The notes under the pieces: model-generated | What the model was told of the DNA's origin: nothing | The model's input: only the letters and a program-made list of their open reading frames with translations | Database searches by the model: none | NCBI GenBank assembly: GCA_050951805.1 | Contig: JBMNJT010000008.1 | Coordinates: forward strand, 259,061-323,060 | Source: Bacillota bacterium | GTDB taxonomy: Bacteria; Bacillota; DTU025 | DNA: 64,000 nucleotides | Direction of reading: 5' to 3' | Position numbers and translations under genes: made by a program | Shown here: positions 20,652 through 35,002 of the stretch, piece by piece | Layout: the number at the start of each line of letters is the position of its first letter | Numbering within the stretch: the stretch's first letter is position 1

Positions 20652-22214
20652 ATGCTAGTGAAAGCAGCGTTCCGGAGGGAGATTATGATGGTTAAGTCAG
20701 ACAAACGTCGACACAAAGGCCAGGATGACTTCGGGTCGAACCGAAGATCTCGGGCGCCTTTGGATGGGCGTCGGCAACTCAAGAAAGGACTACGGGGCGA
20801 TTCCTCTGTAAGCGAGGCAGAAGTTGATTGTTATGCACCAGTCGGGCCCGGACAGCAACTGGCTTTGACCATACATGGACTGACAAGTGAAGGCGAGGGT
20901 GTGGGACGCGCCAATAGTTTTGCGGTTTTCGTCCCTGGAGCTCTTGTTGGCGAGGAGATCGTGTGCACTGTGGAGACTGTGAAGAAGAACTTTGCCCGCG
21001 CCAAGCTTGACAGGGTAATTGTTCCTTCAGAGGAACGCGTTGAGGCAGTGTGCGATCTGTACCCGGCCTGTGGCGGGTGTCAGCTGCTTCACCTGAGCTA
21101 TGAAGGACAGCTGGCCGCGAAGAGGCAGAGGGTTGTGGATGCCGTTGCCAGAATTGGTGGGCTGGAGGAAGTAACGGTCCATCAGGTAATCGGCATGGTT
21201 GAGCCGTGGCGGTACAGAAACAAAGTGCAGTATCCTGTGGGGTGTTGTGGTGATCAATTGGTGACGGGCTGTTACATGAGCGGAAGCCACGAGGTTGTGC
21301 CCACCGAGGATTGCTATATACAGCACCCGGTGACCATGGGAGTAGTCGCGACTGTGCGTAGGCTTGCCGGAGAGTTCGGGCTTTCTGTGTATGAGGAAAA
21401 GTCGCATCGGGGGTTCTTCCGCCATGTGCTAGTCAAGTATGCCTACGGTACTGGCGAGGTAATGGTGGTGCTGGTAACCAATGGGGTTGGTTTCCCCGGA
21501 GGCCGAGGCGCCGAGTTCGGCAGCAGGATCGCTGCTGGGCATCGTGAGGTGAAGAGCGTAATACAGAACGTGAACATATCTCGTGGGAGCGCGGTGCTTG
21601 GAAGAGATAACGTAGTCCTGTGGGGAGAGGAGACTATAACTGACACCGTCGAAGATCTGGCTTTCCGTATATCGGCAACGTCGTTTTACCAAGTAAATCC
21701 CGTCCAGACTGTTACACTCTACAGAAAAGCTCTTGAATATGCCGGGCTCAATGGTACAGAGCGGGTGCTCGATGCATACTGCGGTGTTGGGACGCTTAGC
21801 CTGTTCTTGGCACGCGCAGCACGAGAGGTGTATGGGATAGAGTCAGTGGGAGCGGCTGTGCGTGATGCCAGGGCTAATGCAGATCTGAATGGAGCAGATA
21901 ATGTCCGGTTCATTGTCGGCCGAGTTGAGGATGTGCTTCCAAGGCTTGTGAGAGAGGGGCTGGCTTTTGATGTGGCAGTAGTGGATCCTCCAAGGTCGGG
22001 GTGTGATCCGGCGGTTCTGCAGGCATTGGCAGGAAAGGGGAGCGGCGGAGCAGGGGTAGGTAGAATCGTCTATGTGAGCTGCAACCCGGCTACCATGGCT
22101 AGGGATCTCAAGATTATGGGTGGACTGGGGTATACGACTTGCGAAATTCAGCCCGTGGATATGTTCCCTCATACATTCCACGTTGAGACGGTGGTATTGA
22201 TGTCAAGACTGTAA
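20652..22214 (+). CDS. rlmD: 23S rRNA (uracil-C5)-methyltransferase, RumA/RlmD type
   Basis: N-terminal TRAM-like domain. Fe-S cysteines (CDLYPACGGCQLLHL). SAM motif DAYCGVGTLSL. VDPPRSG. Catalytic YVSCNP. The stop coincides with the GC-to-AT compositional break. Confidence 0.85.
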   Translation: MLVKAAFRREIMMVKSDKRRHKGQDDFGSNRRSRAPLDGRRQLKKGLRGDSSVSEAEVDCYAPVGPGQQLALTIHGLTSEGEGVGRANSFAVFVPGALVGEEIVCTVETVKKNFARAKLDRVIVPSEERVEAVCDLYPACGGCQLLHLSYEGQLAAKRQRVVDAVARIGGLEEVTVHQVIGMVEPWRYRNKVQYPVGCCGDQLVTGCYMSGSHEVVPTEDCYIQHPVTMGVVATVRRLAGEFGLSVYEEKSHRGFFRHVLVKYAYGTGEVMVVLVTNGVGFPGGRGAEFGSRIAAGHREVKSVIQNVNISRGSAVLGRDNVVLWGEETITDTVEDLAFRISATSFYQVNPVQTVTLYRKALEYAGLNGTERVLDAYCGVGTLSLFLARAAREVYGIESVGAAVRDARANADLNGADNVRFIVGRVEDVLPRLVREGLAFDVAVVDPPRSGCDPAVLQALAGKGSGGAGVGRIVYVSCNPATMARDLKIMGGLGYTTCEIQPVDMFPHTFHVETVVLMSRL

Positions 22215-22631
22215 GCCTAGATTTTACTGGGTTTGCGGGATTACATCTAAGTTATCTACTCGACCTAAGGAGGTAAAATGAGTACATGGTAACATGTCGA
22301 TGGTATATTTTTATGCGAAAAATAAGCCTGAAATTAGATAGGGTTGAGTTGATAGTTTAGATAACGGGCATTTTTCATAGGGTTGAGGAGACAGGATGGA
22401 TATATCATCCAATACGTGTTATCGGTATTTTTAGTTTCTATATGTGGCTTTCCATAAAAAAATAAAAAACCTCTTACGAAATGGGATTATCGCTCTACAT
22501 GGAAAATCAATACCGCAATTTATCAATAGATAGGTATATCCTGCAAATAATATTGCGATCACAATAAAAAATACTGAAATTGCATAATAGTAAGTGTATG
22601 CTATAAATATAGGACGATGGAGGTGAAATAC

Positions 22632-22859
22632 GTGCCGGTAAGCTACAAAAAGCTGTGGAAACTGTTGATCGATAAAGACATGAAGAAAAAAGACCTTTGT
22701 AAAGCAGCAGGCATAAGTTCATCGTCTATAGTTAAGCTCAGCAAAAATGAGAATGTGACTACCGGAGTACTGGTCAAGATTTGCAAGGCGCTTAACTGTG
22801 ATATCGGAGATATCATGGAAATTGTTGATGGGCCGGATGAACAGCGCGACTGCAGGTAA
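22632..22859 (+). CDS. XRE-family helix-turn-helix transcriptional regulator
   Basis: PVSYKKLWKLLIDKDMKKKDLCKAAGISSSSIVKLSKNENVTTGVLVKICKALNCDIGDIME is a typical small Cro/C1-type HTH. GTG 22632 follows GGAGGTGA. It is the first gene of the AT-rich island, co-oriented with BREX. Confidence 0.75.
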   Translation: MPVSYKKLWKLLIDKDMKKKDLCKAAGISSSSIVKLSKNENVTTGVLVKICKALNCDIGDIMEIVDGPDEQRDCR

Positions 22860-22896
22860 GATAGCGTGACTAGAATAGAAAGAGAGTGGGGTTTGC

Positions 22897-23340
22897 TTGG
22901 GTACGTTAATAAAGAGTTCTCAATTCAGTAAAAAAATGCTTGAGAAAACAAATACACCGATTATACTTTGCTCTTCTGCGCCAAGATTGAAAAAGATTAT
23001 TGCCGAAGCTGGTTATCAAGAGCTCAGACTTAATGGATTATTGGCTGAAGCCCTTGTAAAAAAAGATGCAGCTATCAGGCCGCAGTTTGTTAGCGATGAA
23101 GCGATAAGAATTGTATCGTCCATACAAGGCCCGATTTTTCTGACAGACTACGAAATGCTGTTTGACCCGAGGTACAGCATTGATGTTATCAGATTTTTTT
23201 ATGAGCTGTCACGCAGAGCAAAAATTGTTATAAAGTGGTGCGGCACGTTGGACGATAACCACTTGGTATATGCAACACCGGCTTATAGGGATTTTCATTC
23301 ATATAACATTCATGACTATGATATAACTTGTGTAATCTGA
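22897..23340 (+). CDS. brxF: BrxF-like small protein (type 3 BREX)
   Basis: About 147 aa and directly upstream of the large P-loop ATPase, which is the position and size expected for BrxF. Only a degenerate Walker-B-like hhhhD (IFLTDYE) is visible and no clean Walker A. The assignment rests on synteny. Confidence 0.5.
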   Translation: MGTLIKSSQFSKKMLEKTNTPIILCSSAPRLKKIIAEAGYQELRLNGLLAEALVKKDAAIRPQFVSDEAIRIVSSIQGPIFLTDYEMLFDPRYSIDVIRFFYELSRRAKIVIKWCGTLDDNHLVYATPAYRDFHSYNIHDYDITCVI

Positions 23341-23354
23341 GGGGGTTTATTTTG

Positions 23355-26300
23355 ATGAAATACGCAGATTTGATAAACTTCAATCCAATCGAAAGCATTA
23401 TCCAGCTTACGGCGGCTAATGACAAGAAAGAAGCAATAAATCTGGTTAAAAGCTATGTCATGTCCGATGATATGGCGGACAAGCTAACCAATAATATGCT
23501 TTCACAGCTTCGGTTAGATGATGTGGTAGACAATAAAGGTGTTTTGCTGGTAGGTAACTACGGTACAGGTAAATCACACCTTATGTCGGTCATTTCTTCA
23601 ATAGCATACGATGCCGAAAACCTTGACTATGTACAAAACAAAAAGTTTGCCGAGGCTGCCAGGATCATTGCGGGGAAGTTTGAAGTTCTGCGTATTGAGA
23701 TAGGCGCATCAAAAATGTCCCTCAGGAACATCATCCTGACAAAAGTAAAGCAGGATTTTGCTGAACGTGGGCTCATCTTTGACTTCCCTGATGAAAAGGA
23801 TATTATCTCAAATAAAGATGTGCTCCTGACCATGATGGATTTGTTTTCATCCAAATATACCGACAAAGGATACCTGATTGTGGTGGATGAGTTCCTCGAC
23901 TATCTTGGCGGCCGTAAAAGCCAGGAGATTAAGCTCGACTTGGGCTTCATGCGCGAGCTGGGAGAAATTATTAAAACTTCCCGTTTAAGAGCTATTTTCG
24001 GAGTACAGGAAAAACTTTTTGATAACCCCAGCTTTTCATTTGTATCCAATACTTTAAACCGGGTAAAGGATAGGTTTGAGCAAGTCATCATTCGTAAGGA
24101 AGATACGGCCTATGTTGTATCTGAAAGAATACTGAAGAAGACTCCTGAACAGAAGGCGCTGATCCGTGAGCACTTGCAAAAGTTCTGCAGTCTGTATACC
24201 AATATGTCGGAGCGCATGGAGGAGTACGTTGACCTGTTCCCTATTCATCCTTCATATATTGAAGTTTTTAACAAGATTTACATTATTGAGAACCGTCATA
24301 TACTAAAAAACATTTCGGAGATCATCAGGCGGATACTTGACGATGAAATTACTGATGAATCTCCCGGCATTGTATCATTTGACAGCTACTGGTCCTTTAT
24401 CAAGGAAAACCTTGCCCTTAAAACAGATGCCAATATTAAAGAAGTCGTTGAAAAGAGCGGCATGCTGGAGGATATCGTCAACCGTTCATTTCCTAAACGT
24501 CTTTATAAACCTTTGGCCTTGCAGATAATATATGCTTTAAGCGTACATAGATTAACCACCGGTGACATCAGTATCCGTGCGGGACTTACTGCAGAAAACC
24601 TAAGGGATGACCTCTGTTTATATTTAAAAGGCATGCCAGACCAAAGCTCGGATACTTTGCAATCTTTGATTCAAACGGTTCTGAAGGATATAATGACCAC
24701 TGTCAGCGGGCAGTTTATTGAACATAATGCAGATAACGGCCAATACTATCTGGACTTGAAAAAAGATATCGACTACGACGAAAAAATCACGCAAAGAGCG
24801 GCTATTATGGATGATGACAGTCTGAATAGCTATTTTTATGATGTAGTTTATTATTGCTTAGAGTGGGATCAGAAAGAATATGTTGATAATTTCAAAATCT
24901 ATGAACACCGGTTAAACTGGGTGTCTCATGCTATTTTTCGCTCAGGCTACCTATTCTTTGGCACACCTGAATCGCGTCCGACTGCTCAGCCGCCAGAGGA
25001 TTATTACATATACTTTATTCCTCCCTATGGCAATGAGAGCTATACGGATGACAAGAAGGACGATGAGGTCTTTTTCCTGTTTAAACCCAACGAAGACTTC
25101 AAGAACACGCTGAAGTTATATGGTGCTGCTCAAATACTGAAAGATTTGGCCGAAGAAAAAAATAAGCCTGCCTATCAAAACAAAGCTGAAGTTTTCAAGA
25201 AAAAGCTGACGAAATACCTGAGCGAAAATAAGAATACTTGCTTTGAAGTAATCTATAAGGGCGAAAAGAAGCAGCTGATGGAAGTGATGAAGGGACAATA
25301 TAAGAGCACCAACCCGTTCAAAGAAACCATTGATCTGGTTGCTTCCATCTGTTTGGACGAATACTTTACGAAAAAGTATCCTGAGATGCCGAAATTCAAA
25401 ATTCAGATTACGCACCGCAACCGGGCAGATATTATCCGTGCAGGCATTGACAGGTTTGCAGGGCGAAAGAACCAACAGGCAAACGCCTTGCTTGAAAGTT
25501 TTGATTTACTTGACGGTGAAAAAATTACCGTTCAAAACTCCAAGTATGCACAATACTTTATCAAAGAGCTGGAAAAGATTCCTGCCAAAGCAGTTATCAA
25601 TTTCAGTGACATTTATACTGAAGTTCAAAATAAAGATGAATATTACCTAGACAAGCGGTTCGGAATCAGCTATGCTCTTTTGCCAATTGTCTTGCTTGCA
25701 TTGGTTCATACAGGCCATGCCGTCATTGCTTTAAGGAACGGCACTACCCTGACTGCCTCTGATTTGGAATCATTGCCCAAGATATCAGCCCTTGATATCT
25801 ATGAGTTTAAGTACATTTCCAAGCCGAAGGACATGCAGCTGGCAGAGTTGGTCAGGCTGTATGAGCTGCTGGAGCTCCCTGTTGGCCTTATCAACAATCC
25901 TGCCCAGCGGGAGGCCGGGCTTGAACAGATGCTTGCCAGAGCACAGGAGATGGCCAATGTTGCGGTCAGGGCCAACAGCAAGCTGAACGGAGAATTTGAG
26001 CTTTGGGGCGAACCGCTGATTGCCGACCATCTTGCTTCGGATTATAAGGCTTCTGCTAAGAGGGTGCTGGACATATTTGGGAACTTCCAGAGCAGGTTCA
26101 ATACCGTGGCCAAGCTCAATAACTTTAATTACACAATGGAACAGATTGAGCAGCTTGGCAAGGATATTGCTGCATCAAAAATTGTTCTGGAATACGAAAA
26201 ATTCAGGAACGACTGCCTTGCCAATGTCAATTACATGATGAATTTGGAACGCATGGAGCTTGGTGCTGCCTTAAGAGCAGAGATTGAAGCCGCCAAGGAA

Positions 26301-26993
26301 AACTTCCGCAAGATTAGAGATGACATACCTCAGGACATGAGCGGCGAGGCTGCTGCAGCGGATGTGAACAGTCTGCTGGTAAAAGTCAAAAACCAGTATA
26401 TTGACATCTACTTTGCAGAGCATCAGAAAAAACGTCTCGGAGTTTCCGATGGCCAGCGTAAGGGTGAACTGGTCGGGTCGGCAAAACTAGCTAATTTAAA
26501 GCGCTTGAAAGCAATCAATAATATTTTTTCGGCATCTAAACTGGACAGCATTGAAAAGGATCTGGCCGGGCTCAAAGTCTGCTATGAGCTGACTCCTGAT
26601 ATGCTGAAAACGAACCATTTCTGCACGAAATGCAATTTCTTGATGGGTGAAGCCGATATTCCGGTAAAAGGCAGGCTTGAAGAGATTGAAGACCGGATTG
26701 ACAGCCTGCTTGCCGAATGGACGAATACCCTGTTTAATACGGTTACGGACCCAACCATTGAAGAGCAGAAGCAATATCTAAGCCCGGAACAGCGCAAGGC
26801 AATTGATGCCTTTATAGAAACCAAGACCTTGCCCGAAAAGATTGACCAGTTCTTTATTACTGCTATTGAGGATCTGTTGCAAGGTTTTGAACCTGTCGCC
26901 ATTGCGGCCGACGAACTCATTGACAAGCTCGGTGCGTTCGGGCCGTGCGATATTGATACCTTCCAGCACAAACTGAAAGCCTCTGCTGGATAG
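23355..26993 (+). CDS. brxC: BrxC-like large P-loop ATPase (type 3 BREX)
   Basis: 1212 aa. Walker A LLVGNYGTGKSHL and Walker B LIVVDEFLDY near the N-terminus, followed by a long helical C-terminal region. Its position between brxF and the methyltransferase supports the call. Confidence 0.75.
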   Translation: MKYADLINFNPIESIIQLTAANDKKEAINLVKSYVMSDDMADKLTNNMLSQLRLDDVVDNKGVLLVGNYGTGKSHLMSVISSIAYDAENLDYVQNKKFAEAARIIAGKFEVLRIEIGASKMSLRNIILTKVKQDFAERGLIFDFPDEKDIISNKDVLLTMMDLFSSKYTDKGYLIVVDEFLDYLGGRKSQEIKLDLGFMRELGEIIKTSRLRAIFGVQEKLFDNPSFSFVSNTLNRVKDRFEQVIIRKEDTAYVVSERILKKTPEQKALIREHLQKFCSLYTNMSERMEEYVDLFPIHPSYIEVFNKIYIIENRHILKNISEIIRRILDDEITDESPGIVSFDSYWSFIKENLALKTDANIKEVVEKSGMLEDIVNRSFPKRLYKPLALQIIYALSVHRLTTGDISIRAGLTAENLRDDLCLYLKGMPDQSSDTLQSLIQTVLKDIMTTVSGQFIEHNADNGQYYLDLKKDIDYDEKITQRAAIMDDDSLNSYFYDVVYYCLEWDQKEYVDNFKIYEHRLNWVSHAIFRSGYLFFGTPESRPTAQPPEDYYIYFIPPYGNESYTDDKKDDEVFFLFKPNEDFKNTLKLYGAAQILKDLAEEKNKPAYQNKAEVFKKKLTKYLSENKNTCFEVIYKGEKKQLMEVMKGQYKSTNPFKETIDLVASICLDEYFTKKYPEMPKFKIQITHRNRADIIRAGIDRFAGRKNQQANALLESFDLLDGEKITVQNSKYAQYFIKELEKIPAKAVINFSDIYTEVQNKDEYYLDKRFGISYALLPIVLLALVHTGHAVIALRNGTTLTASDLESLPKISALDIYEFKYISKPKDMQLAELVRLYELLELPVGLINNPAQREAGLEQMLARAQEMANVAVRANSKLNGEFELWGEPLIADHLASDYKASAKRVLDIFGNFQSRFNTVAKLNNFNYTMEQIEQLGKDIAASKIVLEYEKFRNDCLANVNYMMNLERMELGAALRAEIEAAKENFRKIRDDIPQDMSGEAAAADVNSLLVKVKNQYIDIYFAEHQKKRLGVSDGQRKGELVGSAKLANLKRLKAINNIFSASKLDSIEKDLAGLKVCYELTPDMLKTNHFCTKCNFLMGEADIPVKGRLEEIEDRIDSLLAEWTNTLFNTVTDPTIEEQKQYLSPEQRKAIDAFIETKTLPEKIDQFFITAIEDLLQGFEPVAIAADELIDKLGAFGPCDIDTFQHKLKASAG

Positions 26994-27057
26994 CTATACT
27001 AGGGGCAAAGATAAAGAGAAGCTGCGCATTATTGTAAAAAGATAAGGAGAAACTGTT

Positions 27058-29580
27058 ATGAAACTGACCAAGGAAGATATTGATAAGGTACGTCATATTG
27101 AGGGCTTCCCTATAGCCAAGGACGAGGATATTATTGCTCTATCCAATCCTCCCTATTATACAGCATGCCCTAACCCGTTTATTGAGGATTTTATAAAAGA
27201 ACATGGCAAGCCTTATGATGAAGCGACTGACGATTATCATAGGGAACCGTTTGCTGCGGATGTAAGCGAAGGTAAGAATGACTCGATATATAATGCCCAT
27301 AGTTATCATACTAAAGTGCCTTACAAGGCCATTATGCGTTATATTCTTCATTATACAGAACCAGGTGACATCGTATTTGATGGATTCTGTGGTACTGGAA
27401 TGACAGGTGTTGCTGCACAAATGTGTGAAAATCCTGAACTGGAATTCAAGGCCAAAATCGAAGCCGAAATGCCCTATGTGAAATGGGGGGCACGCAAAGC
27501 CATATTAAACGACCTTTCACCTGCCGCAACCTTTATAGCCTATAACTATAATACACCTGTTGATGTTGTAGAATTCGAAAAAGAAGCAAAGCGTATTCTT
27601 GCTGAATGTGAAAAAGAATGTGGGTGGATGTATGAAACGCAGCATACAGTTGACGGTAAGCTGCAGTATGGAATAGATGAAAAGCCGATAATAGGACGCA
27701 TCAACTACACGGTTTGGAGCGACGTGTTCATCTGCCCCACCTGTTCCAATGAAATTGTGTTTTGGGACGCGGCTGTTGACAAGAAAAATGGCAAGGTCAA
27801 TGACACCTTTTTTTGCCCTCATTGCCGCAGCGAGCTGACCAAACGCAGCTGCGCACGAGCCCAGGAAACACATTTTGATACACGGCTGAATGAATTTGTC
27901 ACCATGGCCAAGCAGGTACCGGTTTTAATCAATTACTCGGTGGGTAAGAAACGGTTCGAAAAAAAGCCGGATGAGTTTGACCTGGCGTTGATTGAAAAAA
28001 TTGATAATATGGAAATACCTTATTGGTATCCGACGGATGAATTGCCAAAAGGAGATAAAACACGTGAGCCGATACGCCTGGGAATTACCCATGTGCATCA
28101 GTTTTATACGAGAAGGAATTTGGCGGTATTGGCAACATATTTAAGTAAAATTGCATCTGTAAAGTATATTTTATCTGTCACTGCTTCATTGTATCGTTCT
28201 ACAAAAATGTATAAATTTACTTTGGACCGAAAAATGGGTACCGTTAGCGGAACACTGTATATACCTTCCCTTAATGTCGAAAATTCACTATTTAAGTTAC
28301 TTGATCGAAAGATAAATGATAGTTCTAAGGCATTGCAGATTACTCAGAGCTTTCAAAACTTTATACAATGCTGCTCAACTGTTAATTTGTCAACAATACA
28401 GGAAAATACAATAGATTATATATTTACTGATCCTCCATTTGGCGGCAACCTAAACTATTCCGAACTGAACTTTATATGGGAATCATGGCTGAAAGTATTT
28501 ACCAACCAAAAACAAGAAGCTATTATGAGCACTGTTCAGGGAAAAGGATTGCTGGAGTATCAGTCGCTAATGACTCAATGCTTCACTGAGTGTTACCGCA
28601 TCCTGAAACCGGGCCGTTGGATGACGGTGGAATTCCATAATTCACGAAACTCCGTCTGGAACGCTATTCAGGAATCATTGATGCGAGCAGGCTTCATTAT
28701 CGCGGATGTGCGAACAATCAACAAGCAGCAAGGAAGTTTTAACCAAGTTACGACCACGTCGGCTGTTAAGCAAGACCTTGTAATTTCAGCATATAAACCA
28801 AAGGAAAGTTTTAAGCGTGAGTTTATTTCCCACGCTGGAAGCGAAGAAACAGCATGGAGTTTTGTACGACAGCATCTTGAAAATTTACCCGTAGTTGTTG
28901 TTAAGAACGGAAAAATTGAACTAATAGCAGAACGCCAGGCATTCCTGCTCTATGACCGTATGGTGGCGTATCATATTATGAATGGAATAGCTGTTCCATT
29001 GGACGCAACAGACTTTTATAAAGGCTTGGACGAAAGGTTCTTGAAGCGTGACGGGATGTACTTCCTGGCTGACCAAGTCAACGAATATGATACGGCCCGT
29101 ATTGTTAACGATGTGGAGCCGGTTCAGTTTGAGCTTTTTGTCACCAATGAGAAGTCTGCCATTGCATGGCTTTACCAGCAGCTTGAGACACCGCAGACAT
29201 ATGCCGAACTCCAGCCGAAGTTTATGCAGGAAATAAAAGCCTGGGATAAGTTTGAAGTAAGGCCTGAGCTGGCAGTATTGCTTGAAGAAAATTTCTTGCA
29301 GGACGATAAGGGCAGGTGGTATATTCCGGACATTACAAAGGCTGCCGATGTGGCCAAGCTCCGGGAAAAGAAATTGCTTAAAGAATTCGAGGGCTATTTA
29401 GCTACCAAAGGCAAGCTCAAACTCTTTCGTACGGAAGCAATAAGGGTGGGCTTTGCAAAGCTCTGGGCTGATAAGAACTATAAGCTAATTGTCGAAACCG
29501 CGGAACGCTTGCCAGAAAATGTTATCCAGGAAGACGACAAGCTGCTTATGTACTATGATATCAGTTTAGGAAGGATTTGA
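27058..29580 (+). CDS. pglXI: PglXI-like DNA methyltransferase with internal zinc ribbon (type 3 BREX)
   Basis: SAM-binding FDGFCGTGMTG. Catalytic FTDPPFGGN (an amino-methyltransferase D/N-PP-F/Y motif). Zinc ribbon CPTC...CPHC. 840 aa. Confidence 0.8.
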   Translation: MKLTKEDIDKVRHIEGFPIAKDEDIIALSNPPYYTACPNPFIEDFIKEHGKPYDEATDDYHREPFAADVSEGKNDSIYNAHSYHTKVPYKAIMRYILHYTEPGDIVFDGFCGTGMTGVAAQMCENPELEFKAKIEAEMPYVKWGARKAILNDLSPAATFIAYNYNTPVDVVEFEKEAKRILAECEKECGWMYETQHTVDGKLQYGIDEKPIIGRINYTVWSDVFICPTCSNEIVFWDAAVDKKNGKVNDTFFCPHCRSELTKRSCARAQETHFDTRLNEFVTMAKQVPVLINYSVGKKRFEKKPDEFDLALIEKIDNMEIPYWYPTDELPKGDKTREPIRLGITHVHQFYTRRNLAVLATYLSKIASVKYILSVTASLYRSTKMYKFTLDRKMGTVSGTLYIPSLNVENSLFKLLDRKINDSSKALQITQSFQNFIQCCSTVNLSTIQENTIDYIFTDPPFGGNLNYSELNFIWESWLKVFTNQKQEAIMSTVQGKGLLEYQSLMTQCFTECYRILKPGRWMTVEFHNSRNSVWNAIQESLMRAGFIIADVRTINKQQGSFNQVTTTSAVKQDLVISAYKPKESFKREFISHAGSEETAWSFVRQHLENLPVVVVKNGKIELIAERQAFLLYDRMVAYHIMNGIAVPLDATDFYKGLDERFLKRDGMYFLADQVNEYDTARIVNDVEPVQFELFVTNEKSAIAWLYQQLETPQTYAELQPKFMQEIKAWDKFEVRPELAVLLEENFLQDDKGRWYIPDITKAADVAKLREKKLLKEFEGYLATKGKLKLFRTEAIRVGFAKLWADKNYKLIVETAERLPENVIQEDDKLLMYYDISLGRI

Positions 29581-29589
29581 GGTGGCTCA

Positions 29590-30150
29590 ATGATTACCTG
29601 GTTAAACGCAAATCAAGGCTTTGTAATGTGTTTGCTTACATTTGTATATGTTCTGGCAACAATTGCAATTGTAGTTATGAATAATATGACCATTAAAGAG
29701 ATGAAAGAAGCGAGAGCCGCTGAGAGCCGCCCTTACGTTTTTGTAAGCCTTCATAAAGATCCCAGAGATGTGTGCTTTTATCTACGTGTGAAAAACCACG
29801 GAAAGACCGGTGCAATAATAAATAGGCTACAAATTACACCTATTATCAAACTTGTGGATATTGAAGAAAAGAGTAATTTCTTAGAAAGAAGTATCTTGGC
29901 TCCAAACCAAACGCTTCAATTTATTGTTTTGGAAAAATGGGAAGAAACTTGTGAAAAGGATTATAACGTGGAAATTGAATATACAATGGTCGGGGATGCA
30001 AATAGTAGCTTTCACGAGCAGTATGCTTTGGTGGTTCAATATGCACATCAAATGGGATATACAGACAGGAGCAATAGCAATCTTAGTAACTCGGAGAACT
30101 CATTAAAAAGTATTGCGGAACACTTGGATTCAATTAGAAGTAAACTTTAG
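29590..30150 (+). CDS. hypothetical single-pass membrane protein embedded in the BREX operon
   Basis: GAGGTGG RBS 7 nt upstream of the ATG. N-terminal hydrophobic helix (FVMCLLTFVYVLATIAIVVM) followed by a beta-rich soluble domain of about 150 aa. No family recognised. Confidence 0.6.
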   Translation: MITWLNANQGFVMCLLTFVYVLATIAIVVMNNMTIKEMKEARAAESRPYVFVSLHKDPRDVCFYLRVKNHGKTGAIINRLQITPIIKLVDIEEKSNFLERSILAPNQTLQFIVLEKWEETCEKDYNVEIEYTMVGDANSSFHEQYALVVQYAHQMGYTDRSNSNLSNSENSLKSIAEHLDSIRSKL

Positions 30151-30176
30151 TATTATGAAACGCAAAGGAATTGAGT

Positions 30177-32846
30177 ATGAAGAATATTGGAGATTACGTT
30201 TTTGATAAAACTAAAAATGAGCGTGTGCAGGTATTGGAGATCAGCGAAGTATGGGGCTTTGTGTCTTACAAGGTGTTTAATGCTTCTACCGGGACAGTTT
30301 ATAAGTTATCTGCTGAGGACATTTGCGCCGAAGCACCCGAAGAAAATTTTAATGAGAGCTATCTCCGATATGTTGCCCTGCTTTCAAAAATCAAGAACGA
30401 AACCTCCGCAGGCATCCTGTCAAAACTATCGAGCGGTATCATCCCTTTGCCGCACCAGTTGCACGTCCTTAACCGGGCTTTATCAAACAATAAGGTGAGA
30501 TACATATTGGCGGATGAAGTGGGTCTCGGAAAAACTATTGAAGCAGGACTCATTATTAAAGAGTTAAAGACCAGGGGACTTATCAAGCGGATACTGATTG
30601 TCTGCCCTACCGGTCTGGTAACCCAATGGAGTCTGGAAATGCAGGACAAGTTCAACGAGAAGTTCCATGTTATCCTGCCGGAAGATTATGATGCCATTCG
30701 TAAGATAACTGGAAATGAGGATGTTTACGGGCAGTTTGATCAGGTTATCTCACCTATGGATTCGATCAAGCCCTTGGAAAGACGGGTTGGCTGGACGGAA
30801 GAAAAGATTGCCCAATACAATGAGGAACGAATTTATTCCATCATTAACAGCGGCTGGGATTTGATCGTGATAGACGAGGCCCATAGGGTTGCCGGGAGCT
30901 CGGGGGAAGTAGCCAGACACAAGCTTGGCAGACTCCTGGCTGCAGCCAGCCCGTATCTTTTGCTATTAACTGCGACACCTCATAATGGCAAAACGGAACC
31001 GTTTTTGCGGCTAATACGACTGATTGATGAAAAGGCCTTCCCCAATATCAATGCTATTGTTAAGGAGCAGGTAGCTCCTTATGTTATAAGGACGGAAAAG
31101 CGTGAAGCCATAGACAATAACGGCAATAGGCTTTTTAAAAATCGAACTACCAGGGTTATTGAATTGCACTGGGACGAACGGCATTCCATGCAGCGCAGGC
31201 TGTATGAAATGGTGTCGGATTATGTCTCCCGAAATTATAATAAGGCCATGCGCAATCGAGGCAAAAACATGTGGTTCATATTTCTGCTCATTATGATGCA
31301 GCGTCTGGTCACCAGCAGCACAAGCGCGATCCGGGAAAGTATGGAACGGCGAGTGAAAGTCCTGGAAGAGCAGGCATTCAAATATCAATCCATGACCGAA
31401 GAAGAATTTGCCGAGATGGAATTGGAAGAAAACATGGAGGATGCCATTGCTGCCATTTCTCTGGACATCAAGGAAGAAATTGCCCGGCTTAACGATATTA
31501 TTGCGGTTGCCAGGCAGGCAGAGTTTCAATATCTTGATGTCAAAGTTGAGCCGTTGCTTGAAATTATCGACGACCTATTTGCTGAGGACCGGCAAAGAAA
31601 GGTTATTATTTTTACGGAATTTGTGGCGACCCAAAGCTACCTTGTCAAGCTGTTGAAAGACCGGGGGTATTCAACATCCATTCTCAACGGCAGCATGAGT
31701 ATTGAGGAACGGAATGCCGTGCTGCAGGAGTTTAAAACGGAAACGAACATCCTTATTTCGACCGACGCCGGTGGTGAGGGCCTAAACCTGCAATTTTCCA
31801 ACTGCATTATTAACTATGACCTGCCCTGGAATCCAATGAAGATAGAGCAGCGTATCGGGCGCGTTGACCGTATCGGGCAGCAAAGAGATGTGATAGTTTA
31901 TAATTTTATTCTGGCTGATACTGTTGAAAGCCGTGTAAAAGCTGTGTTGGAAGAAAAGCTTTCCGTTATCCTGAAAGAGATTGGCATCGACAAGTATTCT
32001 GATGTACTGGACAGCGAAGCTGCTGAGCTTAACTTTACGGATGCTTATATGAAATCAATCCGCAATCCTAAAAACATTGAGTTGAACATTCGCCCGGTTG
32101 AGGAGGATTTGAAAAAGCAGGTTCAAAACACCATGCGCATAAAAGACCTCATCAAGGAAGAAAAAGACCTTGCCTCAATGATTGGGACAGGATCTGCTTT
32201 TGACTTTGAAGCTGCATTGCGGCAGATGGTCGCGTACTATGAAAACTATAAGGGCAATCCCTACTTGCCTATCGAGCATCTCAGCATTAATGACCCTGTG
32301 ATTGTTGGCCATCTGAACAAGGAAATCGAGCAAGACTTGGGAGGTCAGCTTTTCAATGTTTCAATAAAAGATTTTCCCAACGAAAAGGGCTTCTTTATGC
32401 TGTGGCGGATATCACTTACTCTTGACAGCCAGGGGCAGAAGATTATCCCCATTTTTATTAACCAGGATTTTATCCTGCGTCCCATGGCGGGCAAAAAGAT
32501 ATGGGAGGCTATTCTTGACCAAGAAAGGGTTATTACTGTTCGCGACGGGGAAAAGATCGATATAAAAACTCAGAATAAGCTCCTTACAGCGTCACAGGAA
32601 TTTGCTTACGACACTTTCTTAACGCTGAAAGCTGAACTGGAAAAAAGAAATGAAGAAACATACCGAAAGTATTTGTATGCTTTGAACCTGCGCATTGAGG
32701 CCGCGCAGCGAATAGGGATCGAAAATATCAGGAAGCACAAACTTATGGTCTTAAGCCGGGAAAAGGCAGATATAGAAGCTAACTATCAGGCGGGCAAGAA
32801 ATTCTGCCCTGACTTTAAGCCGGTATTGATAGTACATATGGAGTGA
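30177..32846 (+). CDS. brxHII: BrxHII-like SNF2/DEAH superfamily-2 helicase (type 3 BREX)
   Basis: Motif I LADEVGLGKTIEAG. Motif II DLIVIDEAHR. Motif III LLLTATP. Motif VI QRIGRVDRIGQ. There is a C-terminal extension of about 290 aa of unknown fold. Confidence 0.8.
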   Translation: MKNIGDYVFDKTKNERVQVLEISEVWGFVSYKVFNASTGTVYKLSAEDICAEAPEENFNESYLRYVALLSKIKNETSAGILSKLSSGIIPLPHQLHVLNRALSNNKVRYILADEVGLGKTIEAGLIIKELKTRGLIKRILIVCPTGLVTQWSLEMQDKFNEKFHVILPEDYDAIRKITGNEDVYGQFDQVISPMDSIKPLERRVGWTEEKIAQYNEERIYSIINSGWDLIVIDEAHRVAGSSGEVARHKLGRLLAAASPYLLLLTATPHNGKTEPFLRLIRLIDEKAFPNINAIVKEQVAPYVIRTEKREAIDNNGNRLFKNRTTRVIELHWDERHSMQRRLYEMVSDYVSRNYNKAMRNRGKNMWFIFLLIMMQRLVTSSTSAIRESMERRVKVLEEQAFKYQSMTEEEFAEMELEENMEDAIAAISLDIKEEIARLNDIIAVARQAEFQYLDVKVEPLLEIIDDLFAEDRQRKVIIFTEFVATQSYLVKLLKDRGYSTSILNGSMSIEERNAVLQEFKTETNILISTDAGGEGLNLQFSNCIINYDLPWNPMKIEQRIGRVDRIGQQRDVIVYNFILADTVESRVKAVLEEKLSVILKEIGIDKYSDVLDSEAAELNFTDAYMKSIRNPKNIELNIRPVEEDLKKQVQNTMRIKDLIKEEKDLASMIGTGSAFDFEAALRQMVAYYENYKGNPYLPIEHLSINDPVIVGHLNKEIEQDLGGQLFNVSIKDFPNEKGFFMLWRISLTLDSQGQKIIPIFINQDFILRPMAGKKIWEAILDQERVITVRDGEKIDIKTQNKLLTASQEFAYDTFLTLKAELEKRNEETYRKYLYALNLRIEAAQRIGIENIRKHKLMVLSREKADIEANYQAGKKFCPDFKPVLIVHME

Positions 32847-32851
32847 ATTTT

Positions 32852-34297
32852 ATGATAGAGAAACGGATAGCAGAGCTTTTTTCAATTCAATATGAAAAGC
32901 GGTTGCTGATATTTGATGCCGGTGGATTTTGTGCTGCCTTTGATTATACCAGGCTGCTTATTTCTCAGAATTTTGAGGTTATCCGGTATGAGGATATTGA
33001 AGCATTCCGGCTAAGGTATGAGCAAGAAATAAGGAATTCTGATAATAAATATGCGGTTATTGTTTGTTCCGACATATATGTGCCGTACGATATAAGGAAA
33101 CAGTTTTTTGAGGTTGAAATTTCTCTAAGAGGCATCTTTCCGAAACTTCATGAAGATACGGTACGCCGGTATATTAAAGACATTGACTTGATTAGCTTTG
33201 CCTATGGGGAGCTTTATTCGTCCTGTGACACCAGGGAAAAGACGGAAATATTTATTTCAGATACGGTCTTTTCAAAGGGAAATATAAAAAACTATTGTGA
33301 GCTAATGATAAAAAACCTTTTGCCTTCCGGCGACAAATCCGGTATTACTGCCAATGGCTGGATTGAGATTGCCCGTAAAAAGGCCTTGATTGATTATTAC
33401 GCTGCCAAAGCAAATATCTCGATCGATACGAGTTTTGTTGACGCGGAATTTGAAAAGTTTATATTTGATGGCTATCAAAAGCTTTCCGGTGAGACCAAAA
33501 AAGAGGCTCCTGCTATCTTGCCTAAAGTAATTGATTTTATAGCGCATGGTAAGACTGCACTTATTGTCGTCGATGGGATGTCGTTATTTGACTTTGAGAT
33601 AATCTCACGATATTTGGAAGGCATTGACTATGAATACCATTGTACTTATGCCCTAATACCAACGACGACGGCTATTTCAAGGCAAGGCCTGCTCAGCGGG
33701 AAGTATCCGCGTGAGTTGGAAAATCCTTTTACTTTAAGCCAAGAAGAAAAGGGCTTTATGGAGGCTGCCAAGAACAGGGGATATACCAAACAGCAAAGCT
33801 TATATGCAAAGGGCTACAATCCGCCCATTAGTCATTTTACAAGGTTTGCGGCTATTATCATTAATGATATAGACGATTTAGTTCACGGTCAAAAGCAAGG
33901 CCGTGTAGGGATGTATAATGACGTTTCGTTATTGGCAAAAAGCGGCAAGTTACAAACATTAATACAAGATTTATATTCACAAGGATTTAATATTTATATA
34001 ACATCCGATCATGGCAACACTCCCTGCATCGGAGCAGGAGCTATCCGCAATGCTGGAGTCGAGGTGGAAACCAGATCCAAGAGGATGTTTGTACTGAAAG
34101 ATTTTGCGGAAGAAAAGGATTCTTTTGGAGACAAAGTCGTGACTTATCCGGGATATTACTTGGATAAAGACTATAAATACTACGTCTGCGAGTCAGGTGT
34201 TTCTTTTGATAATAAGAATGAAGAAGTAATGACACACGGAGGCATCTCCATTGACGAGGTAATTGTCCCATTCATTAAAGTAAAGGCGGTAATTTAG
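32852..34297 (+). CDS. pglZ: PglZ-domain alkaline-phosphatase-fold protein (type 3 BREX)
   Basis: ALIVVDGMSLFDF, PTTTAISRQGLLSG and ITSDHGN motifs are typical of the PglZ/alkaline phosphatase fold. The start follows the helicase stop by a few nt. Confidence 0.8.
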   Translation: MIEKRIAELFSIQYEKRLLIFDAGGFCAAFDYTRLLISQNFEVIRYEDIEAFRLRYEQEIRNSDNKYAVIVCSDIYVPYDIRKQFFEVEISLRGIFPKLHEDTVRRYIKDIDLISFAYGELYSSCDTREKTEIFISDTVFSKGNIKNYCELMIKNLLPSGDKSGITANGWIEIARKKALIDYYAAKANISIDTSFVDAEFEKFIFDGYQKLSGETKKEAPAILPKVIDFIAHGKTALIVVDGMSLFDFEIISRYLEGIDYEYHCTYALIPTTTAISRQGLLSGKYPRELENPFTLSQEEKGFMEAAKNRGYTKQQSLYAKGYNPPISHFTRFAAIIINDIDDLVHGQKQGRVGMYNDVSLLAKSGKLQTLIQDLYSQGFNIYITSDHGNTPCIGAGAIRNAGVEVETRSKRMFVLKDFAEEKDSFGDKVVTYPGYYLDKDYKYYVCESGVSFDNKNEEVMTHGGISIDEVIVPFIKVKAVI

Positions 34298-35002
34298 ATG
34301 GCAAAAATAATTGGACTGTCCCGTTCCATTAGATTGGAATGGCTCAATAAAACTGTAGAACTCGTACTGGAGGGAAAGAACGAAACGCAAATTAAAGACG
34401 AATTGAACGAATACTTGTCCTTTGAAATAAAGAGCCCGACTGTTCTGAGAAAAACACGGGAAATCCTCATGAATATATGGGTGAGGACTCCTGAGGAACT
34501 TTCAACTTTAAAACAGCAAGCTTTAGAAGCTTATAAGGATGAGAAGTCGAATAAACTGGCATTGCATTGGAGCATGATGCTGGTTGCATATCCTGTATTC
34601 TCTGATGTGTGTGCTTTAATAGGCAAGCTCACTAACATCCAGGATACATTTGCGGCATCCTGGCTTAAGGAAAAGCTGTTTGAAATGTGGGGAGAACGGA
34701 CTACGCTGTTTCATTCCAGTGATAAGATATTGCAAACCTTGAAGCAAATTGGAGCTATTGAAAATGAGAAAGTTGGGGTATATCGCATAAAAAAGTACCC
34801 GGTTACCGATGTGAAAACCATACAGGTGTTGTTATTGGCCATCCTTCACTTAAGGGAAAGAGCCTACTATGAAATTGCAGAGCTTTCTTCGGTACCCCAG
34901 GCTTTTCCGTTTGAATACACTGTTTCACTCGAATGGCTGCATGACTCGGATTTATTTACGTTAAGTAACTTTGGCGGCAAAATTGTGTTAACAGTGGATT
35001 AA
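34298..35002 (+). CDS. brxA: BrxA-like protein (type 3 BREX)
   Basis: 234-aa helical protein. The start abuts the pglZ stop (TAGATG). It is the terminal gene, as in the canonical type 3 order. The assignment is mainly by synteny and size. Confidence 0.5.
   Translation: MAKIIGLSRSIRLEWLNKTVELVLEGKNETQIKDELNEYLSFEIKSPTVLRKTREILMNIWVRTPEELSTLKQQALEAYKDEKSNKLALHWSMMLVAYPVFSDVCALIGKLTNIQDTFAASWLKEKLFEMWGERTTLFHSSDKILQTLKQIGAIENEKVGVYRIKKYPVTDVKTIQVLLLAILHLRERAYYEIAELSSVPQAFPFEYTVSLEWLHDSDLFTLSNFGGKIVLTVD

What the first reader, a model, noticed from the sequence alone, without database searches (positions are those of the whole stretch)
22617..35002. Complete type 3 BREX defence locus with an upstream XRE regulator
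Six co-oriented, tightly packed genes occur in the order described for type 3 BREX (brxF, brxC, pglXI, brxHII, pglZ, brxA).
- A small protein of about 147 aa.
- A 1212-aa P-loop ATPase (GTGKS / VVDE).
- An 840-aa methyltransferase (FxGxG, DPPF, zinc ribbon).
- An 889-aa SNF2/DEAH helicase.
- A 481-aa PglZ alkaline-phosphatase-fold protein (VVDGMS, TTTAISR, SDHGN).
- A 234-aa terminal protein.

A 75-aa XRE HTH gene precedes the operon and could act as its regulator, by analogy with regulators found next to other BREX loci. Type 3 is one of the rarer and least studied BREX types, and its mechanism is unknown. This is the dominant defence system in the window.
Basis: partly seen in the sequence, partly recalled or inferred. 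Interest (0 to 1): 0.7.

Follow-up and report, generated by a model that had tools for sequence, protein, structure and literature searches.

The report
Type 3 BREX operon with cargo

Summary
Window 22632-35002 carries, on the + strand:
- a 75-aa XRE gene
- brxF, brxC and pglXI
- brxHII, pglZ and brxA

Curated NCBIfam models place BrxF and PglZ in BREX-3, both above cut-off. PADLOC models give E = 0 to 1e-63 for BrxC, PglXI, BrxHII and BrxA. The DISARM DrmD model stays below its cut-off. dN/dS against relatives is 0.02-0.36, so the genes are under purifying selection.

At least 309 related loci exist in reference genomes, so the system itself is ordinary.

1. An XRE homologue sits directly upstream of brxF in 12 of 48 related loci, often overlapping the brxF start.
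2. The pglXI-brxHII junction is a cargo position. It is filled in 24 of 60 related loci, by CBASS, Gabija, Schlafen-type and other genes.
3. Here that position holds a membrane-anchored beta-sandwich protein with no Pfam or PADLOC match. Its close homologues recur between hsdS and hsdR of type I R-M systems, next to type IIG enzymes and in conjugative elements. BxaP, an unrelated protein, shows the same pattern and is a proven anti-phage gene.

Verdict: a new member of a known kind, with one untested accessory candidate.

The parts
22158..22214 (+). 3' end of the host RlmD/RumA-like rRNA/tRNA U5-methyltransferase gene (20652-22214). This is the left junction of the low-GC island.
   Evidence: Pfam tRNA_U5-meth_tr and TRAM. 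GC falls from 0.55 to 0.41 here. The DNA shared with L056, L005 and L001 begins at 22158, 22179 and 22203, inside the last codons (...HVETVVLMSRL*).
22546..22631 (+). Conserved leader of the cassette. It holds the imperfect palindrome ATTGCGATCACAAT (22552-22565), promoter-like hexamers (CTGAAA 22574-22579, 17 nt, TATGCT 22597-22602; alternatively TTGCAT, 16 nt, TGcTATAAA) and the SD sequence GGAGGTG.
   Evidence: Similarity to the more distant locus L002 starts exactly at 22546, and everything upstream is unalignable. The hexamers were read by eye. The consensus scan did not report them, and four relatives have TTGAAA where the window has CTGAAA. Operator function is inferred only.
22632..22859 (+). 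75-aa XRE/Cro-C1-type HTH protein, first gene of the operon (an alternative ATG lies at 22617).
   Evidence: Pfam HTH_26 9.8e-22. NCBIfam VanU-like, 96 bits, below the 150 cut-off. PDB 3TYR 'predicted transcriptional regulator' 1.7e-21. Homologues start at M-[AP]-[IV]-S-Y-K-K-L-W and abut or overlap brxF in 12 of 48 loci.
22897..23340 (+). brxF (147 aa), an inactive STAND-like P-loop protein.
   Evidence: NCBIfam BREX_3_BrxF, 61 bits against a cut-off of 50. PADLOC BrxF 6.4e-17.
23355..26993 (+). brxC/pglY ATPase (1212 aa; the ORF opens at TTG 23328).
   Evidence: Pfam DUF6079 E = 0 over its full length. PADLOC BrxC E = 0. Walker A GTGKS and Walker B VVDE.
27058..29580 (+). pglXI (840 aa), an N6-adenine DNA methyltransferase with a nested target-recognition insert and a 4-Cys zinc ribbon.
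   Evidence: PADLOC PglXI E = 0. Pfam N6_N4_Mtase 5e-20. FCGTG, DPPF, CPTC and CPHC. Residues about 160-456 are 20-60% identical to relatives, while the rest is 85-100%.
29590..30150 (+). Embedded 186-aa gene ('orf186'): an N-terminal transmembrane helix, a beta-sandwich and a C-terminal helix. It is cargo in the pglXI-brxHII position and is not a core BREX gene.
   Evidence: No Pfam, PADLOC or NCBIfam hit. PHROG 9607, unknown function, 2.7e-16. 58 homologous clusters, nearly all 182-201 aa when full-length. AF2 pLDDT 79. No significant PDB fold or sequence match. Contexts.
30177..32846 (+). brxHII (889 aa; the ORF opens at TTG 30171), a Swi2/Snf2 RapA-like helicase.
   Evidence: PADLOC BrxHI|BrxHII 1e-301. 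Pfam SNF2-rel_dom and Helicase_C. GLGKT, DEAH, TAT and QRIGR. DISARM DrmD 367 bits against a cut-off of 610.
32843..34297 (+). pglZ (484 / 481 aa), an alkaline-phosphatase-fold protein of the short form. Its start overlaps the brxHII stop by 4 nt.
   Evidence: NCBIfam BREX_PglZ_3, 264 bits against a cut-off of 250. Pfam PglZ 2.6e-9. PADLOC PglZ 1.2e-72. Matched at full length in close relatives.
34298..35002 (+). brxA (234 aa).
   Evidence: PADLOC BrxA 1e-63 over residues 3-233. No Pfam hit. The DNA shared with L005 and L002 ends at 35001, just before the last base of the brxA stop codon.
35323..35350 (+). Intrinsic-terminator-like hairpin with a T-run, the first after brxA.
   Evidence: AACACCCAAACGGGTGTT followed by TTTTATTTAT. 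This is a consensus match only.

Best explanation
**What it is.** Window 22546-35350 is an intact, horizontally acquired type 3 BREX operon. Reading left to right it contains:
- a conserved leader (promoter and a palindrome)
- a 75-aa XRE-family HTH gene
- brxF, brxC and pglXI
- one embedded cargo gene (orf186)
- brxHII, pglZ and brxA
- a terminator-like hairpin

**How it most likely works.** This is inferred from what is established for type 1 BREX and from the domain analysis of type 3 in PMC12839542. None of it is shown here.
1. PglXI, an alpha-class N6-adenine methyltransferase, marks host DNA. Its specificity is set by the nested recognition insert (residues about 160-456, with a 4-Cys zinc ribbon).
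2. Unmarked incoming phage DNA is recognised by a complex built around the BrxC ATPase, the inactive-STAND protein BrxF, the DNA-binding BrxA and PglXI.
3. The RapA-like Swi2/Snf2 motor BrxHII acts on that DNA, and the PglZ phosphodiesterase/nuclease acts as effector. Phage replication is blocked.
4. The XRE protein, as first gene, most likely binds the palindrome next to its own promoter and sets the expression level of the whole operon, as R-M controller proteins and RptR do.

**The embedded gene.** orf186 is not part of BREX. It occupies the junction between the methylase and helicase genes, which related loci fill with independent second-line defence modules. It is most likely a self-contained accessory of that kind.
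For: - **Identity.** Two curated BREX-3 models score above cut-off, and BREX profiles match at E = 0 to 1e-63.
- **Gene order.** The canonical order is kept across related loci L001-L080.
- **Intactness.** No frameshifts and all catalytic motifs present. Starts and stops are tightly spaced or overlapping.
- **Selection.** dN/dS is 0.02-0.36 for every gene where divergence allowed an estimate, against L005, L002 and L001.
- **Horizontal origin.** Cassette GC is 0.36-0.45 against 0.55 for the neighbouring host gene. The cassette is about 94% identical in nucleotides to cassettes in MAGs labelled Fermentithermobacillaceae, Tissierellaceae and Christensenellales, and the similarity ends exactly at the brxA stop.
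- **XRE.** A homologue lies directly upstream of brxF in 12 of 48 loci, at 49-100% identity, with stop and start overlapping in six. The conserved block shared with L002 begins 86 nt upstream of the XRE start.
- **Cargo position.** 24 of 60 loci carry 0.5-4.4 kb inserts, nearly all co-oriented with the operon, exactly between the pglXI stop and the brxHII start. The inserts encode CBASS pairs, Gabija, AAA_13 ATPases, RES, Schlafen/AlbA, a kinase and UvrD-like proteins.
- **Literature.** The canonical type 3 order and a gene inserted at the same junction are described in PMC10799925. Type 3 domain architectures and embedded auxiliary effectors are in PMC12839542. Embedding in BREX, DISARM and type I R-M is in 10.1101/2024.01.29.577857.
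Against: - No functional data exist for this locus. I found no experimental study of any type 3 BREX system in the searched library. Every mechanistic step is extrapolated from type 1 BREX and from domain homology.
- The consensus promoter scan did not detect the promoter I read by eye.
- The window has CTGAAA where four relatives have TTGAAA at the candidate -35. This could weaken expression.
- PglZ is about 160 residues shorter at its N-terminal side than the 641/642-position PADLOC and NCBIfam profiles. The short form is conserved in the close clade.
- BrxA has no Pfam DUF1819 match.
Confidence: 0.9

Rival explanations
1. orf186 is a defence accessory working by 'guilt-by-embedding' logic. 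It would be a membrane-anchored second-line or abortive-infection effector, or a guard. It would act on its own or fire when the neighbouring methylase/translocase system is inhibited, as PrrC does in EcoprrI and as BxaP may do in BREX-3 and type I R-M.
For: - It occupies the same junction that related loci fill with CBASS, Gabija, Schlafen and AAA_13 modules.
- Close homologues (44-61% identity, almost all 182-201 aa) sit between hsdS and hsdR, or next to hsdM/hsdS, in seven separate type I R-M loci: L083, L090, L094, L096, L115, L155 and L156.
- Others lie directly after Eco57I/MmeI-type enzymes (L084-86, L111, L116), in a second BREX-3 lineage together with Gabija (L113/L114), and beside an nSTAND3 NTPase (L157).
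- That makes 13 of about 20 distinct contexts.
- BxaP shows the same BREX-3/type I R-M pattern and protects E. coli against T4 on its own (PMC10799925).
- The TM helix is unusually conserved and has invariant polar residues: N6, N8, G10, T17, Y20 and T24.
- A remote homologue lies in the lysogeny-side region of a temperate Flavonifractor phage.
Against: - There is no homology to any known effector. Pfam, PADLOC and NCBIfam give nothing. hhalign to Cap15 gives probability 1.3%. Foldseek finds only generic beta-sandwiches at E >= 2e-3.
- Many copies lie inside the transfer region of gut Firmicutes conjugative elements, between a VirB4-like gene and unknown genes.
- Several lie in housekeeping neighbourhoods (L081, L110, L112, L158).
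- The wider superfamily has 2691 clusters, and most of their contexts were not examined.
Confidence: 0.4
2. orf186 is a neutral passenger, or has a non-defence membrane function (for example a component or exclusion factor of conjugative elements) and merely hitch-hikes in recombination-prone junctions of mobile defence operons.
For: - The most numerous copies are in ICE transfer clusters, in the order TrbL, sortase, VirB4, a 219- or 263-aa unknown gene, orf186, then a 225- or 229-aa unknown gene.
- Some members have housekeeping neighbours and a conserved partner of about 190-225 aa that is absent here.
- In L113/L114 the BREX-embedded copy is frameshifted.
Against: - It has been inserted repeatedly and independently at the equivalent position of three different kinds of methylase-based systems, always co-oriented and tightly coupled. 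In L083 and L090 its start overlaps or abuts the hsdS stop.
- It is 100% identical between the window and L005, with intact flanks.
Confidence: 0.45
3. The locus is an inactive relic of a BREX-3 cassette stranded in a decaying mosaic of mobile elements.
For: - IS21 lies immediately downstream.
- The adjacent serine recombinase is split by an IS256-family element.
- The neighbouring phage-like block is tail-less.
- The candidate -35 hexamer carries a T-to-C change relative to four relatives.
Against: - All eight ORFs are intact with their catalytic motifs.
- dN/dS is far below 1.
- Near-identical cassettes persist in several unrelated MAGs.
Confidence: 0.08
4. The locus is a different SNF2-helicase plus methylase system, such as DISARM or a DUF499 'BREX-related' system, and not BREX.
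For: The BrxHII helicase also matches DrmD, DpdE and RapA profiles. PglXI has a weak DUF1156 methylase hit.
Against: - DrmD scores 367 bits against a cut-off of 610.
- There is no DrmA/DUF1998/PLD gene and no DUF499 ATPase. The ATPase is DUF6079/BrxC at E = 0.
- PglZ and BrxF pass the BREX-3 cut-offs.
Confidence: 0.02

Closest known systems
Type 3 BREX (Goldfarb et al. 2015 classification; domain analysis in PMC12839542)
   Same: - All six canonical genes are present in the canonical order.
- PglXI has the nested recognition insert and the 4-Cys zinc motif.
- BrxHII is a Swi2/Snf2 helicase with C-terminal extensions.
- PglZ lacks a C-terminal domain.
- BrxF and PglZ pass the curated BREX-3 cut-offs.
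   Different: - It carries two extra genes: an XRE gene in front and a 186-aa membrane-protein gene between pglXI and brxHII.
- PglZ is the short (about 484 aa) form, against 641/642-position profiles.
- BrxHII is 889 aa, against about 940 in the paper.
[quoted passage not shown]
   Same: It is also a single extra gene inserted exactly between pglXI and brxHII of type 3 BREX, with homologues embedded in type I R-M systems. It is the only tested precedent for cargo at this junction.
   Different: BxaP has an N-terminal DUF4145 domain and a HEAT-like C-terminus. orf186 has a TM helix and a beta-sandwich and no DUF4145 match. No phenotype is known for orf186.
PrrC in EcoprrI, DarTG2 in the RptR-controlled type I R-M island, and 'guilt-by-embedding' candidates (PMC12255303; 10.1101/2024.01.29.577857)
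   Same: The overall plan is the same: a small HTH gene first, a methylase-based core system, and an independent module embedded between the specificity/methylase genes and the helicase/nuclease gene. orf186 homologues occupy the same hsdS-hsdR position.
   Different: - orf186 is neither an ABC-ATPase/anticodon nuclease nor a toxin-antitoxin pair.
- It matches none of the PADLOC-DB v2 candidate models.
- The XRE protein gives no hit to RptR (PDB 9R2Z) at E <= 0.01.
BrxR (a WYL-domain regulator of type 1 BREX) and R-M controller (C) proteins
   Same: Each is a small DNA-binding protein encoded at the head of a defence operon and presumed to be autoregulatory. Like C proteins, this one is an XRE-family HTH protein of about 75 aa.
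   Different: - It has no WYL domain, so it is not BrxR.
- It precedes the whole operon including the methylase, not just a restriction gene.
- Its nearest named relative is VanU (96 bits, below the cut-off).

Membership tests
BREX type 3 | PglZ alkaline-phosphatase-fold protein of the BREX-3 subtype | tested here: met
   NCBIfam BREX_PglZ_3, 264.2 bits against a cut-off of 250. Pfam PglZ 37.8 bits against 25. PADLOC PglZ 1.2e-72. Metal and nucleophile motifs VVDGMS, TTTAISR and SDHGN.
BREX type 3 | BrxC/PglY large P-loop ATPase | tested here: met
   Pfam DUF6079, 1461 bits over its full length. PADLOC BrxC E = 0. Walker A and B motifs.
BREX type 3 | PglXI-type methyltransferase (not PglX), with a recognition insert inside the Rossmann fold | tested here: met
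   PADLOC PglXI E = 0, residues 2-751. Motif I FCGTG at 110 precedes motif IV DPPF at 458. Two CxxC pairs lie in the insert.
BREX type 3 | BrxHII Swi2/Snf2 helicase | tested here: met
   PADLOC BrxHI|BrxHII 9.9e-302. Pfam SNF2-rel_dom and Helicase_C.
BREX type 3 | BrxF and BrxA present, with the order brxF-brxC-pglXI-brxHII-pglZ-brxA on one strand | tested here: met
   NCBIfam BREX_3_BrxF, 61 bits against a cut-off of 50. PADLOC BrxA 1e-63. Order, and the same order in related loci. The order is interrupted only by orf186.
BREX type 3 | Confers phage resistance together with site-specific host DNA methylation | not testable with these tools
   Needs a methylome and plaque assays.
DISARM | DrmA (DUF1998-associated helicase), DrmB and DrmC, and DrmD above cut-off | tested here: not met
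   DrmD scores 367 bits against a cut-off of 610. No DUF1998 or PLD protein was found among the eight ORFs.
BrxR-type BREX regulator | wHTH plus a WYL domain (about 290 aa) | tested here: not met
   The protein is 75 aa and has only HTH_26/HTH_3.
RptR (R-M-proximal repressor) | Sequence homology to RptR (PDB 9R2Z) | tested here: not met
   phmmer against PDB at E <= 0.01 returns only 3TYR/3TYS.
R-M controller (C) protein-like autoregulator | A small XRE HTH protein that binds palindromic boxes at its own promoter | tested here: inconclusive
   The XRE fold is met. An imperfect 14-bp palindrome lies at 22552-22565, next to promoter-like hexamers in a conserved leader. No binding data exist, and the promoter scan was negative.
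BxaP | N-terminal DUF4145 domain | tested here: not met
   orf186 has no Pfam hit at E <= 0.01.
BxaP | Inserted between pglXI and brxHII, with homologues embedded in type I R-M | tested here: met
   This is a resemblance of context, not homology.
Cap15-type CBASS membrane effector | TM helices plus a Cap15 cyclic-dinucleotide receptor domain, next to a CD-NTase | tested here: not met
   No Cap15_CD_rec hit. hhalign to the L001 Cap15-like protein gives probability 1.3%. There is no cyclase in the locus.

The most novel reading that the evidence does not exclude
The 186-aa membrane-anchored beta-sandwich protein at 29590-30150 would represent a new, uncharacterised family of R-M/BREX-embedded immune accessories. 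Its core clade has 58 clusters, and its superfamily has 2691 clusters at E <= 1e-3, with no Pfam, PADLOC or PDB relative. It would be a membrane effector or guard with a predicted cytoplasmic sensor domain. It would give a second line of defence when methylation-based systems are evaded or inhibited, independently of which system (BREX-3, type I or type IIG) hosts it.
Probability: 0.3. Interest if true: 0.6.

Novelty: new member of a known kind. Interest (0 to 1): 0.35.

Why it matters
The locus adds nothing new in kind. Type 3 BREX is catalogued in hundreds of taxa, and its domains were dissected in 2026. Its practical value is as material for experiments.
- **A compact test construct.** The cassette is intact and about 12.8 kb long (22546-35350). 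Near-identical natural variants differ mainly in the PglXI recognition region and in the cargo at the pglXI-brxHII junction. That makes a ready-made allelic series for the first functional tests of type 3 BREX: motif specificity, the role of BrxHII, and the role of the XRE gene.
- **A candidate accessory gene.** If orf186 proved to be a defence gene, it would add a widespread 'dark' membrane-protein family to the set of modules that back up R-M-like immunity.

Tried and rejected
- **DISARM or another SNF2 system.** Rejected on curated cut-offs.
- **PglZ truncated or fused.** Rejected. The 484-aa form is matched end to end in the close clade and passes the BREX-3 cut-off.
- **orf186 as a chance ORF.** Rejected. 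It has 58 conserved homologous clusters, and its close full-length homologues are almost all 182-201 aa long.
- **orf186 as a homologue of other proteins.** None supported.
  - BxaP: no DUF4145 hit.
  - Cap15: hhalign probability 1.3%.
  - The small TM protein in L042/L072: hhalign probability 0.6%.
  - Any solved structure: Foldseek best E = 1.9e-3 with TM-score 0.34-0.43 to an archaeal pilin, and no HMM hit against PDB.
- **Fused domains in ten longer superfamily members.** No Pfam hit.
- **att-type direct repeats of the left junction elsewhere in the window.** Only chance 11-13-mers.
- **Tandem or simple repeats that could give phase variation in the operon.** Nothing notable.
- **Cassette on known plasmids.** No megablast match.
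- **orf186 on plasmids or phages.** No plasmid hit, and only one remote phage hit.
- **XRE as an RptR homologue.** No.
- **Consensus promoter scan.** It did not single out the leader, and internal promoter-like hits are about at chance level.
- **Left undone.** Host identification and a defence scan of 1-20 kb and 57-64 kb.

Full report
**Observation**

The + strand of window 22.6-35.0 kb carries a tight, co-oriented gene array.

| Gene | Coordinates |
|---|---|
| XRE | 22617/22632-22859 |
| brxF | 22897-23340 |
| brxC | 23328/23355-26993 |
| pglXI | 27058-29580 |
| 186-aa ORF | 29590-30150 |
| brxHII | 30171/30177-32846 |
| pglZ | 32843/32852-34297 |
| brxA | 34298-35002 |

Every quoted motif is present.

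**Identity**

PADLOC profiles match as follows.

| Protein | PADLOC result |
|---|---|
| BrxF | 6e-17 |
| BrxC | E = 0 |
| PglXI | E = 0 |
| BrxHI\|BrxHII | 1e-301 |
| PglZ | 1e-72 |
| BrxA | 1e-63 |

- Pfam finds DUF6079, N6_N4_Mtase, SNF2-rel_dom with Helicase_C, and PglZ. It finds HTH_26 for the first gene, and nothing for BrxF, BrxA or the 186-aa ORF.
- The curated NCBIfam models settle the subtype. BREX_3_BrxF scores 61 bits against a cut-off of 50. BREX_PglZ_3 scores 264 bits against 250.
- The DISARM helicase model DrmD stays well below its cut-off, at 367 bits against 610.
- The order brxF-brxC-pglXI-brxHII-pglZ-brxA is the canonical type 3 order (PMC10799925; PMC12839542).

**How common and how intact**

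- A scan of one genome per species found 309 stretches encoding PglXI relatives. I fetched 80 of these loci.
- tblastn with the window's proteins shows the same gene order in dozens of them. It also shows that the short PglZ of about 484 aa is matched end to end in the close clade.
- The cassette is about 94% identical in nucleotides to cassettes in MAGs labelled Fermentithermobacillaceae (L001), Tissierellaceae (L005) and Christensenellales (L056).
- The similarity ends at 35001, just before the last base of the brxA stop codon.
- Cassette GC is 0.36-0.45, against 0.55 for the adjacent host gene.
- dN/dS against L005, L002 and L001 is 0.02-0.36 for every gene where divergence allowed an estimate.
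- The locus is therefore a recently transferred, selectively maintained and apparently functional cassette. This makes it ordinary for its kind. PMC12839542 reports BrxHII in 702 taxa, stated as 77% of type 3 systems.
- I found no experimental study of a type 3 system in the searched library.

**The XRE gene**

- Homologues in diverged loci begin at M-[AP]-[IV]-S-Y-K-K-L-W. The real start here is therefore GTG 22632, behind GGAGGTG, which gives 75 aa.
- A homologue at 49-100% identity lies immediately upstream of brxF in 12 of 48 evaluable loci. In six of these its stop overlaps the estimated brxF start.
- Similarity to the more distant cassette L002 begins at 22546, 86 nt upstream of the XRE start. 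Everything further upstream is unalignable.
- That conserved leader contains an imperfect palindrome (ATTGCGATCACAAT, 22552-22565) and promoter-like hexamers.
- I read these elements by eye. The consensus scan did not report them. The window has CTGAAA where four relatives have TTGAAA.
- The protein is XRE/HTH_26 only. Its nearest named relative is VanU, below cut-off. Its best PDB match is an uncharacterised regulator, 3TYR.
- It is not BrxR, because it has no WYL domain. It is not an RptR homologue.
- It is a recurrent optional first gene of type 3 BREX operons. Autoregulation is plausible by analogy with C proteins and RptR (PMC12255303), but it has not been shown.

**The cargo position and orf186**

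- In 24 of 60 related loci the pglXI-brxHII junction holds 0.5-4.4 kb of DNA, nearly all co-oriented with the operon. The other loci have 5-170 nt there.
- The inserts lie exactly between the pglXI stop and the brxHII start.
- Their content is diverse:
  - a CD-NTase-like protein with a Cap15 effector (L001, L032)
  - SAVED-HNH with SMODS (L021, L036)
  - Gabija-like OLD-TOPRIM with UvrD (L014, L114)
  - AAA_13 ATPases (L016, L018)
  - a protein kinase, a RES-domain protein, Schlafen/AlbA proteins, a UvrD-like giant, ABC ATPases and SfsA
- This agrees with published work on auxiliary effectors and embedded systems (PMC12839542; 10.1101/2024.01.29.577857). It also agrees with BxaP, a DUF4145 protein found at this same junction that protects E. 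coli from T4 on its own (PMC10799925).
- Here the position holds orf186. It is a real, conserved gene with 58 homologous clusters. Full-length members are nearly all 182-201 aa and have no annotation.
- The alignment shows an unusually conserved N-terminal hydrophobic helix with invariant polar residues. A K/R-rich segment follows it, which predicts that the C-terminal part is cytoplasmic.
- AlphaFold (pLDDT 79) predicts a TM helix at 9-45, a beta-sandwich at 50-147 and a C-terminal helix at 167-185.
- Nothing links it to a known protein:
  - Foldseek against PDB finds only generic sandwiches, with best E = 1.9e-3.
  - PDB sequence profiles find nothing.
  - PHROGs gives only families of unknown function.
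- A profile search of 1.84 billion representatives finds 2691 clusters at E <= 1e-3 and 511 at E <= 1e-10. Ten longer members have no Pfam domain.

**Contexts of close orf186 homologues**

| Context | Loci |
|---|---|
| BREX-3 cargo position | window/L005/L091; a second lineage L113/L114, where it is frameshifted and followed by Gabija |
| Type I R-M, between hsdS and hsdR or next to hsdM/hsdS | L083, L090, L094, L096, L115, L155, L156 |
| Directly after Eco57I/MmeI-type enzymes | L084-86, L111, L116 |
| Beside an nSTAND3 NTPase and serine recombinases | L157 |
| Transfer region of gut Firmicutes conjugative elements | L087-89, L097-108, L121 |
| Housekeeping or unclear neighbourhoods | L081/L117/L152, L092/L093, L109, L110, L112, L158, L161 |

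- Roughly 13 of 20 distinct contexts are defence loci, and 12 of those are methylase-based.
- This is the same distribution that led to the naming of BxaP. It makes orf186 a reasonable guilt-by-embedding candidate.
- The conjugative-element and housekeeping contexts, and the lack of any functional homology, keep my confidence near 0.4.

**Mechanism**

What is shown is gene content, intact motifs, purifying selection, mobility of the cassette, recurrence of the XRE gene and recurrence of cargo at one junction. The rest is inferred:
1. PglXI N6-adenine methylation marks self DNA.
2. BrxC, BrxF, BrxA and PglXI recognise unmarked DNA.
3. BrxHII acts as the motor and PglZ as the phosphodiesterase/nuclease effector.
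4. XRE autoregulates the operon.
5. orf186 is an independent add-on.

**Other points**

- pglXI has been replaced as a whole in otherwise near-identical cassettes. dS is 0.8-0.9 in its conserved ends, against 0-0.28 in the neighbouring genes.
- Its residues about 160-456 are the most divergent part. That fits specificity switching.

**Verdict**

- The locus is a new member of a known kind.
- The unlisted embedded gene is the only element with real novelty potential.

Noticed in passing
window 22158-22214 (and L056 5119-5175, L005 5140-5175, L084-L086 1-140): The BREX cassette starts right after an RlmD/RumA-like U5-methyltransferase gene. The last ~19 codons (...HVETVVLMSRL*) are near-identical in DNA (about 93% over the whole aligned stretch) to the sequence before the cassette in L056, whose own RlmD-like gene is only 34% identical overall, and in L005. 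An unrelated defence island with an orf186 homologue and a serine recombinase also abuts a tRNA_U5-meth_tr gene. The 3' end of this gene looks like a shared insertion hotspot. I found no att-like direct repeat in the window.
   Followed up: partly
window 27058-29580: pglXI is a recombination mosaic. Against L005, dS is 0.8-0.9 in its conserved N- and C-terminal parts, and 0-0.28 in brxC, orf186, brxHII, pglZ and brxA. Residues about 160-456 (the recognition insert with the zinc ribbon) are only 20-60% identical to L001 and L005. This suggests exchange of the whole gene and of the recognition region, and therefore switching of methylation specificity.
   Followed up: partly
L001-L080, junction between pglXI and brxHII: In 24 of 60 related type 3 BREX loci this junction holds diverse cargo, nearly all co-oriented with the operon: CBASS pairs, Gabija, AAA_13, RES, Schlafen/AlbA, a kinase, UvrD-like proteins and several small TM proteins. 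Some loci lack brxHII altogether (L039, L043, L045, L047, L055, L063).
   Followed up: partly
window 35669-37604: An IS21-family element (istA with an rve domain, 418 aa; istB, 228 aa) lies about 670 nt downstream of brxA, after a terminator-like hairpin at 35323-35350. The PADLOC model 'DrmD' PDLC02630 hits IstB, which looks like a misleading model.
   Followed up: no
window 37860-52989: A phage-like block with no recognisable tail genes. It contains a small terminase, two ParB-N6_N4 methyltransferases, two amidoligases, an HNH protein, a large terminase, a portal protein, a ClpP-type protease, a major capsid protein, two holins and an amidase-LysM lysin. It may be a remnant prophage or a capsid-forming island.
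   Followed up: partly
window 53314-56507 and 59422-60438: A large serine recombinase gene is split by an IS256/Mutator-family transposase on the opposite strand (54290-55507). A second serine recombinase lies at 59422-60438, in a 0.36-0.42 GC stretch.
   Followed up: no
window 63784-64000 versus L005 19314-20705: The last 216 nt of the window encode the start of a protein 87% identical in nucleotides to a 463-aa gene that lies only 1.3 kb after brxA in L005. In the window, about 28.8 kb of IS and phage-like DNA separates this gene from the BREX cassette.
   Followed up: partly
L087-L089, L097-L108 (ICE loci); L081, L117, L152, L158: Outside R-M and BREX loci, orf186 homologues are usually preceded by a conserved unknown partner of about 190-263 aa, with overlapping stop and start in the ICE copies. 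This partner has no Pfam or PHROG match, and it is absent from the window.
   Followed up: partly
L113 3624-4183, L114 8001-8560: In a second BREX-3 lineage the embedded orf186 copy is split into two 93-aa ORFs by a frameshift. A Gabija-like pair follows it in the same cargo position, so cargo can stack and decay there.
   Followed up: no
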